Shown piece after piece: positions 19,478 to 24,193 of a stretch of 34,135 nucleotides of DNA. Within the stretch, counting starts at the first letter, position 1, and every line of letters starts with the position of its first letter. The stretch is from UHGV virus genome UHGV-0125140; one strand, written 5' to 3'. The notes beneath the pieces are model-generated. The model worked only from the letters and a program-made list of their open reading frames with translations. It ran no database searches and had not been told where the DNA came from. The translations under genes were made by a program, and so were the position numbers. This stretch comes from a virus.

Positions 19478-20113
19478 ATGAACGAAGAAAAACACTTATT
19501 ATTACCGATGGATTTACAATTTTTTGCAGATGAGCCAAATTCTGATGAGCCAAACTCTGACAATTCAAACGAATCTGGGAATTCATCGACAAAGGATTCT
19601 CAAAATCCCAAAAATGAAAATCCAGACGGAAAAGAAACTGGAAAGACTTTTACCCGTGAAGATGTATCAAAAATGATTGCAGCAGAAACTAAGAAAGCAG
19701 TGGAGCAAGCAAAATCTGATTGGGAAAAGCAAAAATCTTACGAGCAAATGACTGCGGAAGAACGTGTTAAGGCGAAAGAACAAGAAGCCGCTGACAAAGA
19801 AGCACTAGCGGAAAAACGAGAAAAGGAAGCCCAAGCTCGTCTTGACCGTTTAACGCGTGCCGAATCTGTTCGTAATGATTTATCCGAGAATGGCCTTTCC
19901 GACTACGTAAGTGCTGCGCAAGCCGATTTATTGCTTGTGAAAGATACAGACGAGGATACAAAGAAAGCTGTAGACGAATTAAAACAAATTATTTCAAAAG
20001 CTAGAGATGGTATCCAAAAAGAATTGCTGAAAGGTCAAACTGTAAACGTTGCTACAGCAACAAAAGAGACCGATTGGCGCAGCAATTTGACTAAAAATTT
20101 AGAAAAGAAATAG
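19478..20113 (+). CDS. scaffolding protein (DUF4355-like)
   Basis: ATG at 19478 after GGAGG gives MNEEKHLLLPMDLQFFADE. Acidic low-complexity region, then coiled coil. Immediately precedes the capsid gene. Confidence 0.75.
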   Translation: MNEEKHLLLPMDLQFFADEPNSDEPNSDNSNESGNSSTKDSQNPKNENPDGKETGKTFTREDVSKMIAAETKKAVEQAKSDWEKQKSYEQMTAEERVKAKEQEAADKEALAEKREKEAQARLDRLTRAESVRNDLSENGLSDYVSAAQADLLLVKDTDEDTKKAVDELKQIISKARDGIQKELLKGQTVNVATATKETDWRSNLTKNLEKK

Positions 20114-20126
20114 GAGATGAAAAATT

Positions 20127-21023
20127 ATGCCAGTTATTTTAGATAGCAAAGATTTAAAAGCAATTGACAAAGAATTTGCCGCAGGTTCGCAAGTTTGGGA
20201 TTTATTGAAAGGTGGAGCTGCTGCAGTAACTGAAGCGGATTTTGTAGGCGCAAAAGAAGTCCGCATCAACAAAATGAAAGGTTTTACTGCTAGTGATTAT
20301 AAACGTAACGAAGACAATAAACGTTCTAAAATTGATGTGGCAAAAGAAACGTTCAAATTAGAGAAAGAGCGTTGGTTTGGATATGACTTAGACACATTAG
20401 ATCAATCAGAAAATGCTTCCTACGAAGTTCAAGCGCTTGTGGAAGAGCATACTCGTTTAATTGCGATTCCTGAAAAAGATCGAACTGCTGTACAACGCTT
20501 ATTAGAAGCGGCATTTGCTGAGGCTGCGGATGATGATAGCGAAGGAAAATACGTTGGAAAAACGGTAAAAGAAACCATTACTACAGAAAACTCTTTAGCT
20601 TCTTATGACGCAGCAGAAGCGTATATGACAGATGCAGAAATTGTCGGTCCGTTTATTATGTTTGCATCCACTGACTACTATTCAGCATTAAAAAATGCAA
20701 AAGGTGTTTCAAAAACATTTACTACAAACGAGCAACAAATTTCAGGTATTAACCGTAAAGTTGCGCAGTTAGACGGTTCAGATACTATTATTCAAAAAGT
20801 TGCAAAATCTCGTTTACAGGTAGATTCTACGAAGAAAATTAATTATATTCTTGTGCCTTTGATGGTTTGTTCGCCAGTTGAAAAATACAACTCTATTGAT
20901 CTAATTCCAGCTTCACAAGACCGTGATGGCTACAGAGACACCATCAAAGGATTAAACTATTATGATGCTATCGTAACTGAAAAAGCTCGTCCTGCCATTT
21001 ACGTTTCTTACGATTCAAAGTAA
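20127..21023 (+). CDS. major capsid protein
   Basis: 298 aa, strong RBS, follows the scaffold gene. No prohead protease is present, consistent with a scaffold-dependent capsid. Confidence 0.75.
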   Translation: MPVILDSKDLKAIDKEFAAGSQVWDLLKGGAAAVTEADFVGAKEVRINKMKGFTASDYKRNEDNKRSKIDVAKETFKLEKERWFGYDLDTLDQSENASYEVQALVEEHTRLIAIPEKDRTAVQRLLEAAFAEAADDDSEGKYVGKTVKETITTENSLASYDAAEAYMTDAEIVGPFIMFASTDYYSALKNAKGVSKTFTTNEQQISGINRKVAQLDGSDTIIQKVAKSRLQVDSTKKINYILVPLMVCSPVEKYNSIDLIPASQDRDGYRDTIKGLNYYDAIVTEKARPAIYVSYDSK

Positions 21024-21093
21024 GCGCCCCGACCGTTAAAAAGGTAACACCAACGGCAGATGGGGCAGTTGTTGAAGCAGAGTAGGTGAAAAA

Positions 21094-21426
21094 ATGACTC
21101 TTTCAGATTATCGCGTACTACTGGATATTTCAGAGGATACCTACGAAAAAGATAAGGCAAAAATTATCAAAATCTGGGACATTACTGAAAAACAGCTGCG
21201 AGTAAAATTGAAAGCTGATAAAATACCAGAAAAATTGGACTATATTGTTCCGTCAATTGTAGTGAAACGATATAACCGTTTAGGTTTTGAAGGCATGGAA
21301 CAACACTCTCAATCAGAAGAAACAATCTCTTATAATTTGGATGACTTCGGGGAATTTCAAGATGAGATTAACGATTATCTTGAAGAACAAGGCTTGATTC
21401 GTAAAAGGAAGGTGTCCTTTTTATGA
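21094..21426 (+). CDS. head-tail connector protein (gp6-like)
   Basis: Size and position. MTLSDYRVLLDISEDTYEKDKAKI has connector-family character. Confidence 0.55.
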   Translation: MTLSDYRVLLDISEDTYEKDKAKIIKIWDITEKQLRVKLKADKIPEKLDYIVPSIVVKRYNRLGFEGMEQHSQSEETISYNLDDFGEFQDEINDYLEEQGLIRKRKVSFL

Positions 21427-21698
21427 GAACCTGCATTAATTACTACAACAAAAAACACGAGCTGATTTCGGAAAAACTGATAGGTAATGTAACCGAAGTC
21501 GGAACGGAAAAACAAATGACCATTTTCCCTAACATAAAGGAGCAGATGGTCATTTTTCGTTTTAGAGATCGCCTAGCTATTCGTTCAGGATTTCTTGAAT
21601 ACTACGATGAAGAAGAACAAAAAAATCGAAAATTTACCGTTGTTAAAAATTTGCGTGTTAGCAAAGGAACTTCGGTTTATGGAAGCGAATATCGATGA
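21423..21698 (+). CDS. putative head-tail adaptor / head closure protein
   Basis: Position in the connector block. Overlapping start/stop codons on both sides. Confidence 0.4.
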   Translation: MRTCINYYNKKHELISEKLIGNVTEVGTEKQMTIFPNIKEQMVIFRFRDRLAIRSGFLEYYDEEEQKNRKFTVVKNLRVSKGTSVYGSEYR

Positions 21699-22033
21699 CT
21701 TACCGAGTAGATATTTCAGGATTGGATGATTTAATCGAAGCGATTGAAGAAGCGAAAAAGCTAGACGATGTAAAAGAGGTCGTCAAAAATGATACTGCTT
21801 ATATGGCAAATCAAATTGCAGAAGAAACACCAGTCAGAAGTGGATACTTAAAACGAAGTGAGACACCTTCTATTAAAGATGATGGAATGACTGGTGAAGT
21901 CGAAGCGATGGCTGATTATTCGCCATATGTAGAGTATGGAACGCGTTATATGTACGGACGTTTCTATATGAAAAAGGGCCATGCGGCAGCTGCTAAAAGA
22001 TTTCTTGATAATATGGAGGCGTTAGTAAAATGA
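21695..22033 (+). CDS. HK97 gp10-family tail-completion / head-tail joining protein
   Basis: PVRSGYLKRS matches the gp10-family TGNLRRS-type motif. 112 aa. Confidence 0.6.
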   Translation: MTYRVDISGLDDLIEAIEEAKKLDDVKEVVKNDTAYMANQIAEETPVRSGYLKRSETPSIKDDGMTGEVEAMADYSPYVEYGTRYMYGRFYMKKGHAAAAKRFLDNMEALVK

Positions 22034-22422
22034 CCTTTAAAGATCCGTATTCAGAGCTTTACGAAGCATTATTTATCACTCTGGAGCAAGCAGGCTATGA
22101 AACCTATGGGCATTTGCCAGATGATGAGGCTTCTTATCCGTTTGTTTTCTTAGGTGAACAATGGTCTAAGGATAGACAAACAAAAACAAGAACGTTAGGT
22201 TCAACAAATATTATGATTCATGTTTATGATCATGACGACAAACGTCGAGAATTAAATCAAGTATTAGCCGATGTGCGAAAAATCGTTCATGAATTGCATC
22301 AGACTAAGAACTTTAATTGGTTAGTAACGGAAAGTAGCACAGAAGTGATTTATGAAAATACAACCAATTTTGGTACGAGCCTTGCACACGGTGTACTTGA
22401 CATCACGTTAGAATTTGAATAA
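22030..22422 (+). CDS. putative tail terminator / tail completion protein
   Basis: Position immediately before the major tail protein gene. Confidence 0.45.
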   Translation: MTFKDPYSELYEALFITLEQAGYETYGHLPDDEASYPFVFLGEQWSKDRQTKTRTLGSTNIMIHVYDHDDKRRELNQVLADVRKIVHELHQTKNFNWLVTESSTEVIYENTTNFGTSLAHGVLDITLEFE

Positions 22423-22441
22423 AGAAAGAAGGAAACTAGAA

Positions 22442-23047
22442 ATGGAGAAAGCAATCCAAGGTAAAAAAATTAAGTTAATGTTTCGATTAACACGTGAACG
22501 TGCGACAACAGCAGCGAAGTTATTAGCTTTAGAAATTTCACACGAATATAAGTCAGAAACAAAAACAGATACGCAATCAACAAAAGATGGGAATATTCCT
22601 ACATCAGGAATGCCGTCAGCTTCCATCGAAATGGAATTTTTACGGACAGGCACAGAAACTTACAACATGTTGAAATATGCGTACCGTAACGGGCTAGAAA
22701 TTGATGTATGGCGCATTAATTTTGATAAAAAAGACCCAAAAACAGGGAAATACGAAGCGGAATTTGGCACAGGTTTATTGGATTCATTCGGAGATTCTGC
22801 TGAATCTGATTCTAATTCAAGCATTAAGCCAACTCTAGTTTTAAATGGTGATTTAGTGGAAGGATGGGCAACAGTTGACACTGAAAACGAAGAACTTGCG
22901 CGTGCTTTCTTCTACGACACTGTAGCTGGTGCGGAACCAGAGGAGCCTGTAGAAAAATACACACCAAAAACAATTGAAGTACCTAAAGTTGAAAGTATAA
23001 CGCCGACATCAGATGGCGCCGTTGTAAAAGTGAAGGAGGAAGAATAA
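22442..23047 (+). CDS. major tail protein (phi13 / Phage_tail_2-like)
   Basis: ATG at 22442 after GAAGGAAACTAGAA. About 200 aa, upstream of the chaperone and tape-measure genes. The C-terminus ends in ITPTSDGAVVKVKEEE. Confidence 0.75.
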   Translation: MEKAIQGKKIKLMFRLTRERATTAAKLLALEISHEYKSETKTDTQSTKDGNIPTSGMPSASIEMEFLRTGTETYNMLKYAYRNGLEIDVWRINFDKKDPKTGKYEAEFGTGLLDSFGDSAESDSNSSIKPTLVLNGDLVEGWATVDTENEELARAFFYDTVAGAEPEEPVEKYTPKTIEVPKVESITPTSDGAVVKVKEEE

Positions 23048-23049
23048 TC

Positions 23050-23358
23050 ATGGCAATTACTTATCGTATTTACAAAGGTAGTGAAAAAGTAGTTGAAGGA
23101 GCAAGTCCATTAACTATTACAGGACTTGATGCAGGAGCAAAAGTAGCAGCAGGAACGTACCATATTGTACGTGTGCAAGATGAAAAAGAATCTGAAAAAG
23201 TAGCTATTCCAGCTTTTACCGTATTGGCGGGGCGCTCTTTGGAAAATAAACCAACAGAAGCAAATACTATTCCTGAAATCAAAGAATGGTTAACCGCTCA
23301 CGGTATTGATTTTACAGGAAAAACAACGAAAACAGATTTATTAGCATTAGTACCATAA
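23050..23358 (+). CDS. Ig-like domain protein with a C-terminal HeH/SAP-like motif (tail decoration candidate)
   Basis: N-terminal beta-rich TITGLDAGAKVAAGTYHIV is Big_2-like. The C-terminus IKEWLTAHGIDFTGKTTKTDLLALV is HeH-like. Own strong RBS (AAGGAGGA). Lies in the -1 frame relative to the major tail protein, and that frame is open 19 codons upstream. Confidence 0.5.
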   Translation: MAITYRIYKGSEKVVEGASPLTITGLDAGAKVAAGTYHIVRVQDEKESEKVAIPAFTVLAGRSLENKPTEANTIPEIKEWLTAHGIDFTGKTTKTDLLALVP

Positions 23359-23420
23359 TTAAAAATCAGGAAGTAGGCGGCAATGTGAAGGCATTGTCGC
23401 TTTTTTAGGAGGAATTTTAC

Positions 23421-23819
23421 ATGTCAACAAACGTAAAACCTGTCGCAACAATTAACGGAAAAAAATATCCTTTGATTTTCGGTTTTAAATTTTTAAACGA
23501 AATTAACGCATTAAAACCTGACGTTGAAGAAGTAGACGGCTTCGTTCAATTGGTTGGTGGGTTACAAGATGGCGACGCTTTTGCCTTTCAAAAATTAATG
23601 CACGCAGCGTTAATTACTTATGATGACTTAACAACGAAAGAAATTGACGACTACTTAGAAACGTCGGAAGAGGCTTTAACGTTGTTTGAAAATTTTATCT
23701 CTTTCTTGGAGCAAGCACCGTTAACGGCTCTTCGGACGAAAAAATCACTAGAAGCAATCAAAAAAATCATGGCTTACATGGAACAGATACAAGCCAATCA
23801 ACAAGAAACGACAGCCTAG
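23421..23819 (+). CDS. tail assembly chaperone (gpG-like)
   Basis: 132 aa with an acidic C-terminus, between the major tail protein and tape-measure genes. Confidence 0.7.
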   Translation: MSTNVKPVATINGKKYPLIFGFKFLNEINALKPDVEEVDGFVQLVGGLQDGDAFAFQKLMHAALITYDDLTTKEIDDYLETSEEALTLFENFISFLEQAPLTALRTKKSLEAIKKIMAYMEQIQANQQETTA

Positions 23820-24193
23820 ATTATGACGAAATAGTTGTCACTTGTTTTCAACATTTCCCCAATATCACTTTAAAAGAAATTGAGCGTATGACTCCTTATG
23901 AATTTAATTTACGGATAAAAGCTGTAAATTTACGTGCAATTAACGAAGAAAGGAAACTATACGTTAACGCGTTAGCTACACGTATTTTTACAACACCAGA
24001 TGAAAAAGGGCAACGCTATATTTTTAACGAAGTGAAAGATGTCTATGACTTTGAAAAGCTTGAACGCGATGTGCGAGGGGAAATCTCGCAACGAGAAGTG
24101 GAAAAGCTAAGTGAGCTAGAAGAAAACGCTCGTCGATTAGAACAAGCAAGAAAAATTGTTGAGGAAAGGAGGAAACAACGTGACACAAAGTAA
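23762..24193 (+). CDS. tail assembly chaperone frameshift extension (gpT-like). The -1 frame is open from 23762. Expected product is a G-T fusion via slippage on the A7 run at 23760-23766.
   Basis: The ORF-track ORF 23888-24193 lies in the -1 frame relative to gpG. That frame is open back through the AAAAAAA run, which sits inside the 3' end of gpG. Confidence 0.6.
   Translation, partial: KNHGLHGTDTSQSTRNDSLDYDEIVVTCFQHFPNITLKEIERMTPYEFNLRIKAVNLRAINEERKLYVNALATRIFTTPDEKGQRYIFNEVKDVYDFEKLERDVRGEISQREVEKLSELEENARRLEQARKIVEERRKQRDTK

What the first reader, a model, noticed from the sequence alone, without database searches (positions are those of the whole stretch)
20981..21082. Hidden -1-frame extension after the major capsid gene that reproduces the C-terminal peptide of the major tail protein
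The 70 nt between the capsid stop (TAA 21021-21023) and the next gene are open in the -1 frame from 20981 to the TAG at 21080-21082. They read ...K-VSAPTVKKVTPTADGAVVEAE. The major tail protein ends ...KVESITPTSDGAVVKVKEEE (22990-23047). The 10-residue core (V/I)TPT(A/S)DGAVV is shared. At the DNA level the two copies differ mostly at third codon positions (aca/acg, cca/ccg, acg/aca, ggg/ggc, gca/gcc, gtt/gta), so the amino acids are conserved while the nucleotides are not. That is what purifying selection on a translated -1 frame would produce. A plausible mechanism is a shifty stop: P-site tRNA-Lys on AAG (21018-21020) slips back onto AAA (21017-21019) in the context C-AAA-G-UAA, giving a minor long capsid form with a 21-aa tail. 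Listeria siphophages such as PSA are reported to make both capsid and tail-shaft proteins in two lengths by programmed 3' frameshifting. Here both major virion proteins would end in the same peptide, which suggests a common binding or decoration function.
Basis: partly seen in the sequence, partly recalled or inferred. Interest (0 to 1): 0.7.

Follow-up and report, generated by a model that had tools for sequence, protein, structure and literature searches.

The report
Frameshift docking tag for split FN3
After the capsid gene of this Enterococcus prophage lies a hidden 21-residue extension, reachable only by a -1 ribosomal slip, that also ends the tail-tube protein and looks like the missing first two strands of an incomplete fibronectin-type domain encoded by a neighbouring gene, suggesting a natural tag-and-catcher way of decorating both head and tail.

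Summary
The -1 frame after the capsid stop encodes VSAPTVKKVTPTADGAVVEAE. All 28 related prophages keep this frame open at the same length, and the changes in them look like coding changes.

The same about-21-residue peptide occurs after the capsid gene and the tail-tube gene of dozens of Enterococcus and Staphylococcus phages. Their capsids and tail tubes are unrelated. The peptide is always reached through a shift-prone site at the stop codon (-1 or +1). In some tail genes, including this window's, it is in frame.

Tags that need a -1 shift sit in a stable hairpin about 5 nt after the slip site. In-frame tags do not.

The tag co-occurs with a small gene (here 23050-23358). Its N-terminal 59 residues model as an FN3 domain that lacks strands A and B. 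Its C-terminal half is an HeH domain. Natural single-chain relatives carry the tag motif directly in front of this module, and there it models as strands A and B.

Best reading: a -1 frameshift puts a docking tag on a fraction of capsid subunits, and the small protein completes its fold on that tag. The frameshift had been proposed for phage phiEf11. I found no description of the split domain.

The parts
20127..21023 (+). Major capsid protein gene, 0 frame, 298 aa (LL-H gp34 / mv4 g34 type)
   Evidence: ORF list. tblastn matches annotated major capsid proteins of Listeria, Enterococcus and Lactobacillus phages at 47-66% identity.
21015..21023 (+). Proposed -1 shift site UCA_AAG_UAA. P-site tRNA-Lys on AAG (21018-21020) re-pairs with AAA (21017-21019) while the stop codon 21021-21023 occupies the A site.
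   Evidence: Sequence. Invariant in all 28 close relatives, even where the upstream codons differ. Analogous sites at the stop of unrelated capsid genes: TCA_AAA_TAA, A_AAA_AAA_TAG and others.
21020..21085 (+). The -1-frame extension: 21 codons VSAPTVKKVTPTADGAVVEAE (21020-21082) plus stop TAG (21083-21085). Proposed docking tag, equivalent to FN3 strands A and B.
   Evidence: Translation. Conservation and coding signature. Same tag after unrelated capsid and tail genes. In single-chain homologues the tag motif forms strands A and B.
21026..21066 (+). RNA hairpin (GCCCCG/UGGGGC plus CCGUU/AACGG) that starts 5 nt after the slip site. Proposed frameshift stimulator.
   Evidence: Folding. The 54 distinct frameshift-dependent tags have mean MFE -22.5 and mean z -2.3, and 41 carry CCCC...GGGG. 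The 12 in-frame tags have mean MFE -11.0 and mean z +0.3, and none carries CCCC...GGGG. No terminator-like site in 20000-23600.
22415..23047 (+). Major tail-tube protein gene (Phage_tail_2). The start may instead be the ATG at 22442.
   Evidence: ORF list. Pfam PF06199, E = 5.8e-13, residues 14-148.
22979..23044 (+). In-frame copy of the tag at the tail-tube C-terminus (VPKVESITPTSDGAVVKVKEEE). No frameshift is needed and there is no hairpin.
   Evidence: In relative L028 (tail 94% identical over the main segment) the same tag is reached by -1 at A_AAA_AAA_TAA and does have a hairpin.
23033..23039 (+). Shine-Dalgarno sequence AAGGAGG for the next gene, inside the last codons of the tail gene.
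   Evidence: Sequence. It lies 10 nt before ATG 23050.
23050..23358 (+). Small virion-decoration candidate ('ORFX', 102 aa). Residues 1-59 (23050-23226) form a partial FN3 module lacking strands A and B. Residues 73-101 (23266-23352) form an HeH domain.

Best explanation
A fraction of the ribosomes that finish the capsid gene slip back one base at C-AAA-G-UAA. They are helped by the slow stop codon and by a hairpin that begins 5 nt downstream. These ribosomes add 21 residues (VSAPTVKKVTPTADGAVVEAE).

This peptide is not a domain. It is the first two beta strands (A and B) of a fibronectin type III fold. The remaining five strands are the N-terminal 59 residues of the protein encoded at 23050-23358, which is translated from its own start codon and ends in an HeH domain. 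That protein completes its fold on the tag, as in donor-strand complementation. It is thereby fastened non-covalently to the tagged subset of capsid subunits, and to the tail-tube subunits, which in this phage all carry the tag in frame.

Shown here: the open and conserved -1 frame, the slip sites, the hairpin contrast, the co-occurrence of tag and module, the partial FN3 model, and single-chain relatives in which the tag motif forms strands A and B.

Inferred: that the frameshift happens in this phage, how efficient it is, and that tag and module bind in trans.
For: Frame conservation and coding signature.

The same tag follows both the capsid and the tail-tube gene in the loci retrieved through the small gene. 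The motif starts 13 codons before the tag's stop in every frameshift-dependent copy (16 in the in-frame tail tags of the window's clade). The tags are reached from recognised shift-prone sites at the stop: G_GGA_AAA, G_GGA_AAC, C_CCA_AAA, A_AAA_AAA/G, G-runs, and +1 CCC_TAG.

The tags sit on at least 7 capsid groups that BLAST does not relate, always by frameshift. They sit on at least 3 tail-tube groups, in frame or by -1.

The hairpin is present on frameshift-dependent tags and absent from in-frame tags. This holds within one tail family, L028 versus the window.

Tag and module co-occur: 106 loci have both. Nine have neither; these are the distant capsid relatives fetched through the capsid, not through the small gene. 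The loci with only one of the two are mostly truncated contigs.

Rosetta-stone proteins P0106, P0067, P0074, P0033, P0078 and P0140 carry the tag motif directly N-terminal to the module. One example is ...PPTIESVTPTEDGAVVIV-VSGNGIDGS-TMKVYQA....

ORFX homologues always begin at the C strand and carry interchangeable C-terminal domains: HeH, Big_2, beta-helix-like, or none. That is the pattern expected of an anchor plus a payload.

In A118 and PSA a capsid frameshift, reported from virion peptide analysis, leads straight into an HeH domain in cis (my reading of the frames). Here the HeH sits on ORFX, so the end result would be the same.

In S. aureus phage 3A, which has +1 tags on the capsid and tail genes, the ORFX homologue is seen in intact virions at 15,857 Da. 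Its predicted mass without the initiator Met is 15,855 Da. So it is a free, separately initiated and abundant virion protein.

phiEf11 virions show two capsid bands.
Against: No protein-level evidence exists for this phage.

The window's slip site allows only single-tRNA slippage, not a canonical heptamer.

In phiEf11, mass spectrometry did not find the extension peptides.

Sequence methods do not call the chimera FN3: Pfam, PDB HMM search and hhalign were all insignificant.

AF2 models ORFX alone with high confidence, so the fold may not need completion.

Most loci were retrieved through ORFX, so the direction 'tag implies ORFX' rests mainly on the window's own clade plus phiEf11, EfaCPT1, phi12 and 3A.

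One locus (L118) has the module but no recognisable tag.
Confidence: 0.6

Rival explanations
1. The frameshift tag is real, but its partner is not ORFX. It could be a short linear motif for assembly, for contact between head and tail components, or for binding a host surface polymer. ORFX would then attach to the virion in some other way.
For: Frame, slip-site and hairpin evidence says nothing about the partner. AF2 folds ORFX alone with pLDDT 87.7. No complex was modelled.
Against: The tag ends exactly where FN3 strand B ends, and the module starts exactly at strand C. Single-chain relatives join the two into one FN3. Tag and module co-occur across unrelated capsid and tail families. Some module proteins end in a tag of their own (P0081, P0085, P0128), which makes sense only if tags bind modules.
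Confidence: 0.2
2. The FN3 is completed in cis on the tail. A second recoding event at the tail-gene stop (readthrough or a shift) fuses the tail tag to ORFX. The capsid tag is a leftover copy.
For: ORFX starts 2-15 nt after the tail tag's stop in most phages. In phiEf11 it is in the same frame as the tail gene, separated by a single TAA. In the window the ORFX frame is open from 22993.
Against: The frame relation between tag and ORFX is inconsistent: -1 in the window, +1 in L037, 0 in phiEf11, and blocked by a stop in L027. ORFX has its own strong SD and ATG. In several phages ORFX follows the capsid gene instead, about 2.5 kb from the tail tag. The phage 3A homologue is found in virions at the mass of the free protein without its Met. 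Capsid tags are conserved along with their slip sites and hairpins.
Confidence: 0.07
3. The extension is a decayed remnant of a once complete Ig-like or FN3 frameshift extension and no longer has a function.
For: Full Ig-like domains added by frameshifting are common on phage capsid and tail proteins (review text). Only 21 residues remain here.
Against: The length is identical, the stop is retained, and the changes are synonymous or conservative across relatives. The same truncated length recurs on at least 7 unrelated capsid groups, each with an intact slip site and hairpin. A remnant would accumulate stops and indels.
Confidence: 0.05
4. The 70-nt spacer is not translated. It is an RNA element (a stabilising hairpin or processing site after the highly expressed capsid gene), and the peptide resemblance is a by-product of a duplicated DNA segment.
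For: A stable hairpin lies at 21026-21066. The spacer is more conserved at DNA level than the capsid 3' end in some relatives.
Against: The two copies in the window differ mostly at third codon positions. L028 shows 5 synonymous changes in the -1 frame and stops in the other two frames. The peptide, not the DNA, is what is conserved across Enterococcus and Staphylococcus phages, and it is reached from either -1 or +1. There is no T-tract or terminator. In-frame copies of the tag, which are certainly translated, lack the hairpin.
Confidence: 0.03

Closest known systems
Listeria phages A118 / A500 Cps-L (programmed -1 frameshift at the 3' end of cps) and PSA Cps-L / Tsh-L (+1)
   Same: A shift-prone site lies at the end of the major capsid gene (A118: G_GGA_AAC_TAA). 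It yields a minor long form alongside the major short form. The capsid and tail-tube genes are both recoded. An HeH domain ends up on the capsid.
   Different: In A118 and PSA the extension is the HeH domain itself, in cis (52-60 residues). Here it is a 21-residue half-domain, and the HeH is on a separate protein. A118, PSA and LP-LmcIH1-8 have neither the tag nor the module. The window's site is a single-tRNA A_AAG slip.
Enterococcus phage phiEf11 ORF10 (Stevens et al. 2016, PMC5221750)
   Same: It is the same system. An A_AAA_AAA_TAG site, a downstream stem-loop and a 21-residue -1 extension were proposed to explain two capsid bands. I find that its tag is IEAPKVESVIPTTDGASIVLS, that its tail protein ORF15 ends in frame with ...SVESVTPTFDGASTELS, and that ORF16 is an ORFX homologue.
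   Different: The capsid protein family differs. The authors called the frameshift speculative because MS found no extension peptide. They did not note the shared peptide on the tail protein or any link to ORF16.
Ig-like / FN3 domains added to phage capsid or tail proteins by frameshifting (phage A2, T3)
   Same: An FN3 or Ig-type fold is displayed on the outside of head and tail. It is delivered to only a fraction of the subunits by recoding at the 3' end.
   Different: In those cases the whole domain is in the extension. Here only strands A and B are, and the remaining strands come from another gene product.
Donor-strand complementation in chaperone-usher pili (from general knowledge; not tested here)
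   Same: An Ig-like fold that is incomplete on its own polypeptide is completed by strand(s) donated from another polypeptide, giving a very stable non-covalent link. Module proteins that end in a tag of their own (P0081, P0085, P0128) could chain in the same manner.
   Different: Pilins lack one C-terminal strand (G) and receive an N-terminal extension. Here two N-terminal strands (A, B) are missing and are donated by a C-terminal extension. No chaperone is evident, and the setting is a virion.

Membership tests
Programmed -1 ribosomal frameshift at the 3' end of a phage structural gene | Canonical tandem-slippage heptamer X_XXY_YYZ in the 0 frame | tested here: not met
   The window has U_UCA_AAG, which is not X_XXY_YYZ. 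Relatives that carry the same tag do have canonical heptamers: G_GGA_AAA, G_GGA_AAC, C_CCA_AAA, A_AAA_AAA.
Programmed -1 ribosomal frameshift at the 3' end of a phage structural gene | A P-site tRNA can re-pair in the -1 frame, with a slow A-site codon (shifty stop) | tested here: met
   AAG (21018-20) shifts to AAA (21017-19) with UAA in the A site. The site is invariant in 28 relatives. TCA_AAA_TAA in L102, L103 and L105 is the same arrangement.
Programmed -1 ribosomal frameshift at the 3' end of a phage structural gene | Stimulatory RNA structure 5-9 nt downstream of the site | tested here: met
   Hairpin 21026-21066 with a 5-nt spacer. Frameshift-dependent tags have mean z -2.3, against +0.3 for in-frame tags. 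For the window's own sequence z is only -1.8 (78-nt region) and -1.2 (111 nt).
Programmed -1 ribosomal frameshift at the 3' end of a phage structural gene | The overlapping frame is open, conserved, shows a coding pattern of substitution, and has no start codon of its own | tested here: met
Programmed -1 ribosomal frameshift at the 3' end of a phage structural gene | Two protein products are observed, with a junction peptide | not testable with these tools
   The only data are from phiEf11: two capsid bands, but no extension peptide by MS.
Fibronectin type III fold | Seven-strand sandwich (sheets A-B-E and C'-C-F-G) on one polypeptide | tested here: not met
   [not shown]
Fibronectin type III fold | Match to the Pfam fn3 profile or to solved FN3 sequences | tested here: not met
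   No fn3 hit for ORFX or for tag+module chimeras. The assignment rests on structure only.
Donor-strand complementation (split Ig-like fold completed in trans) | The acceptor fold lacks strand(s) that homologous single-chain domains possess | tested here: met
   Alignment A4 and the two models. The missing 28 residues of the single-chain domains contain the tag motif.
Donor-strand complementation (split Ig-like fold completed in trans) | The missing strands are physically supplied by another polypeptide | not testable with these tools
The claim is inferred from co-occurrence and from the free-protein mass of the phage 3A homologue in virions.
HeH / LEM / SAP helix-extension-helix domain (C-terminus of ORFX) | Match to the family profile and a two-helix motif | tested here: inconclusive
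   PF12949 E = 1e-4 at 22.4 bits, below the 28.9 cut-off. Helices at 74-83 and 94-99. Several homologues carry a precomputed PF12949 hit. BLASTP to the annotated A118 HeH protein gives E = 3e-6.

The most novel reading that the evidence does not exclude
Many Enterococcus and Staphylococcus phages use a natural split-FN3 'tag and catcher' system. A recoded extension of about 21 residues (strands A and B) is placed on a tunable fraction of capsid and tail-tube subunits. It is the universal socket for small proteins whose N-terminal five-strand FN3 remainder plugs into it. Those proteins carry interchangeable payloads (HeH, Big_2, beta-helix-like, or a further tag that would allow chaining).
Probability: 0.6. 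Interest if true: 0.9.

Novelty: new variant of a known kind. Interest (0 to 1): 0.8.

Why it matters
Recoding at the end of phage capsid and tail genes is known, but the usual view is that it appends a whole display domain. Here the appended piece is half a domain, and the other half is a separate gene product. This would explain three things.

First, it would explain why hundreds of sequenced Enterococcus and Staphylococcus phages carry a small gene routinely mislabelled 'major tail protein' or 'tail tube protein' next to the real capsid or tail gene.

Second, it would explain how one decoration protein could be placed on both head and tail.

Third, it would explain how its copy number on the capsid could be set by frameshift efficiency.

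It gives annotators a concrete rule: look for the tag in the -1 or +1 frame at the stop of the capsid and tail-tube genes. It makes a ten-year-old unresolved proposal for phiEf11 testable. If binding is confirmed, it also offers a compact natural peptide/protein pair for displaying cargo on therapeutic phages.

Tried and rejected
- Megablast of 20127-23400 against isolated phages found nothing. The genome-contig scan gave only one distant capsid relative.
- Pfam on four tag+module chimeras gave only weak, non-FN3 hits (RGI_lyase E = 0.05). A profile of 21 chimeras against PDB sequences gave nothing relevant. The FN3 call therefore rests on predicted structure and on the single-chain relatives.
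- I considered a covalent, SpyTag-like link through the conserved Asp/Asn of the tag. I rejected it because that position is Thr in many tags (TPTTTGA, TPTETGA), and because the phage 3A homologue has the mass of the free protein.
- I considered cis fusion of the tail tag to ORFX by a second recoding event. I rejected it as a general mechanism because the frame relations are inconsistent.
It is absent there: the PSA cps extension is an HeH domain, and the tsh extension is an acidic tail.
- Within one phage, the capsid and tail tags are only slightly more alike than tags from different phages (0.54 against 0.47 identity). The permutation test is inflated by shared ancestry, so I treat this as weak evidence.
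- Literature searches for a split or strand-complemented decoration domain in phages found nothing. The library lacks most subscription papers, including Dorscht 2009.
Full report
**1. The observation**

The capsid ORF is 20127..21023, ending ...GAT TCA AAG TAA. The -1 frame is open from 20981 and reads KSSSCHLRFLRFK-VSAPTVKKVTPTADGAVVEAE. There is no ATG, GTG or TTG in that frame upstream of the peptide, so it can be made only as a continuation of the capsid protein. The next gene, a gp6-like head-tail connector at 21094..21426, has its own AGGTGA ribosome-binding site. The tail-tube gene (22415..23047; Pfam Phage_tail_2) ends ...VPKVESITPTSDGAVVKVKEEE.

**2. Close relatives**

The capsid protein found 28 viral contigs at 84-100% identity. 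Names attached to homologues of the neighbouring small gene place these in Enterococcus faecalis. All 28 keep TCA_AAG_TAA, an open -1 frame of identical length, and the same stop. The most distant, L028, differs at 17 of 69 nt. In the -1 frame that gives 5 synonymous codon changes, with 9 of the 17 differences at third positions, and replacements such as V to I, S to T and A to S. The other two frames contain stops. Capsid relatives at about 50-65% identity lack the peptide. These are Lactobacillus phages LL-H, mv4 and phiJB, Liquorilactobacillus, and Listeria LP-LmcIH1-8.

**3. The peptide is a portable tag**

The gene after the tail gene (23050..23358, here called ORFX) led to an E. faecium prophage (L037) with an unrelated HK97-type capsid (PF05065) and an unrelated tail tube (PF04630). 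In that prophage both genes are followed, in the -1 frame, by the same kind of peptide:
- after the capsid, at G_GGA_AAA_TAG: (K)IESPAVINVEPTSDGATIALR*
- after the tail tube, at GCG_GGG_AAG_TAG: EVVSPVVGKVTPTTNGATIALS*

A search with an ORFX alignment returned 80 viral loci. In nearly all of them a simple motif regex hits twice: once just after the stop of a 300-400-aa ORF and once just after the stop of a 150-250-aa ORF. The motif always starts 13 codons before the tag's stop. Controls gave 120 hits on the coding strand, 1 on the reverse strand and 3 in shuffled DNA.

The host proteins fall into at least 7 capsid groups and 3 tail-tube groups that BLASTP does not connect. Capsid tags are always out of frame. 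Tail tags are either out of frame or, as in the window and phiEf11, in frame.

The 0-frame sequence at the stop is each time a recognised shift-prone site: G_GGA_AAA, G_GGA_AAC (the A118 cps site), G_GGA_AAG, C_CCA_AAA, A_AAA_AAA/G, G-runs, or TCA_AAA_TAA. In Efquatrovirus EfaCPT1, both genes end CCC_TAG and the tags are in the +1 frame. In S. aureus phages phi12 and 3A, both genes end TTA_CCC_AGC_TAA and the +1 frame reads YPAKPQKVNVTAKAKSAVISAE* and YPANPQNVEVAVNSKSATVSAE*. Such conservation through either shift direction is hard to explain unless the peptide is translated.

**4. RNA context**

In the window a hairpin (21026-21066; GCCCCG/UGGGGC plus CCGUU/AACGG) starts 5 nt after the slip site. 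It is built from the Pro and Gly codons of the tag.

Across 54 distinct frameshift-dependent tags the mean MFE is -22.5 kcal/mol and the mean z is -2.3 against dinucleotide shuffles. Forty-one of them contain both CCCC and GGGG. Across 12 distinct in-frame tail tags the mean MFE is -11.0, the mean z is +0.3, and none contains both.

The contrast holds within one tail family. The window's in-frame tag has no hairpin. L028, whose tail protein is 94% identical over its main segment, reaches its tag by -1 at A_AAA_AAA_TAA and does have the hairpin (MFE -22.2, z -3.2).

There are caveats. The in-frame set is phylogenetically narrow. The z values for the window's own sequence are only -1.8 and -1.2. 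The one in-frame tag from phiEf11 does fold well. No terminator-like site occurs in 20000-23600.

**5. What the tag is**

ORFX (102 aa) has no Pfam match in its first 60 residues and a sub-threshold HeH match at 73-101. Its homologues all begin at the same strand (M-x-x-T-[FY]-[RK]-I-Y-K). After about 58 residues they continue with an HeH, a Big_2, a beta-helix-like domain, a Thr/Pro linker, or nothing.

An HMM of the module, searched against 1.84 billion representative proteins, found 186 hits. In most of them the module starts at residue 1. A few carry it internally, directly preceded by the tag motif:
- P0106: ...SPTLTELTPTKDGFTVKL-TGSNEDS-TFRIYDK...
- P0067: ...PPTIESVTPTEDGAVVIV-VSGNGIDGS-TMKVYQA...
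- P0078: MVDTLSATTDGAVVSF-KNVNVGD-TFRIY...
- also P0074, P0033 and P0140

So tag plus module equals one FN3 domain, split after strand B.

**6. Why in trans**

- ORFX has a strong SD (AAGGAGG, 23033-23039) and its own ATG.
- Its frame relative to the tail tag varies: -1 in the window, +1 in L037, 0 in phiEf11, and blocked by a stop in L027.
- In some phages ORFX follows the capsid gene, in others the tail gene. At least one of the two tags is therefore always kilobases away.
- By HMM, 106 loci have both tag and module. Nine have neither. These are the distant capsid relatives and A118, and they were fetched independently of ORFX. Two loci with the tag only are truncated contigs. Of the three with the module only, one is a 466-nt fragment, one has a divergent tag (NAT..GAN), and one (L118) has none that I can see.
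- Published intact-virion MALDI of S. aureus phage 3A lists an 'Ig-like domain' protein, YP_239945, at 15,857 Da. I confirmed that this is the ORFX homologue and that its Met-less mass is 15,855 Da. It is therefore an abundant, free, separately initiated virion protein.
- In vB_EfaS-271, a 7.0-kDa 'major tail protein' encoded right after the capsid gene was detected with 94% coverage. It is probably the module-only form, as in EfaCPT1 gp06, but I did not verify the sequence.

**7. Link to the Listeria precedents**

For A118, the capsid frameshift (-1) is reported from virion peptide analysis. In the sequence, the shift site G_GGA_AAC_TAA leads straight into ORF7, an HeH domain. The PSA +1 capsid extension is also an HeH. 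ORFX's C-terminus aligns with the A118 HeH (E = 3e-6). The same end state, an HeH on a fraction of capsid subunits, would thus be reached either by direct fusion or, here, by tag plus adaptor.

**8. Prior knowledge**

For phiEf11, Stevens et al. (2016) saw two capsid bands. They proposed a -1 shift at AAAAAAA_TAG with a downstream stem-loop that adds 21 residues. MS did not find the extension, and they called the idea speculative. They did not connect it with ORF15 or ORF16. In phiEf11 I find the -1 tag IEAPKVESVIPTTDGASIVLS, the in-frame tail tag ...SVESVTPTFDGASTELS, and ORF16 as an ORFX homologue. Searches of the held literature found no description of a split or strand-complemented decoration domain in phages. 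Many subscription papers are not held, including Dorscht 2009.

**9. Verdict**

The frameshift itself (confidence about 0.85) belongs to a known kind and was foreshadowed for phiEf11. The reading of the tag as the donor half of a split FN3 that anchors ORFX to head and tail (overall confidence about 0.6) is, as far as I can find, new. It rests on comparative genomics and predicted structures, not on a demonstrated complex.

Noticed in passing
window 23421-24193: The tail assembly chaperone gene (23421..23819, Phage_TAC_12) is overlapped by a -1-frame ORF that is open from 23690 to 24193. A run of seven A lies at 23761-23767. This looks like the usual G/GT-type -1 frameshift of siphophage tail chaperones. 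The exact heptamer register is unclear.
   Followed up: partly
L062 10232.., L061 10143.., L067 10232.., L069 10220.. (relatives of the window phage): In several close relatives ORFX is cut to 60 aa (module only, no HeH). It is followed by a second, divergent module gene of 190 aa (MSGFFEKFRIYKK...). The payload cassette behind the tail gene appears to be swapped between otherwise near-identical prophages.
   Followed up: partly
proteins P0081, P0085, P0128: Some module proteins end in a tag-like peptide of their own (for example ...PTEVTVKATADGANVTAK*). They could accept another module and form head-to-tail chains, as pilins do.
   Followed up: no
L001 4864-5016 (Listeria phage LP-LmcIH1-8) and L040 6082-6240 (A118 ORF7): The 50-52-aa 'hypothetical' or HeH gene annotated right after the capsid gene overlaps its stop by one base, in the -1 frame, behind G_GGA_AAC_TAA. 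It is probably the frameshift extension of the capsid protein rather than a separate gene. This is known for A118 but not annotated for LP-LmcIH1-8.
   Followed up: partly
phage records: The FN3-remainder module occurs in 508 isolated phage genomes: 412 Staphylococcus (including Kayvirus myophages, where it is called TmpH or 'Ig-like protein') and 90 Enterococcus. It is usually annotated 'major tail protein' or 'tail tube protein', which is probably a mislabel. I did not check whether the myophages also carry tags.
   Followed up: no
L028 about 6600 (metagenomic relative): The ORFX homologue of L028 has an in-frame stop (...KIVRVK*NEESEK...) and continues into a Big_2 domain. This could be a sequencing error, a pseudogene or another recoding site.
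   Followed up: no
window 21008-21085 versus L119 4600-4690 (phiEf11): The last codons of two unrelated capsid genes (GAT TCA AAG TAA and GAT TCA AAA AAA TAG), plus tag and hairpin, look alike at DNA level. This suggests that slip site, tag and hairpin move between phages as one 3' cassette.
   Followed up: no
[not shown]
   Followed up: no
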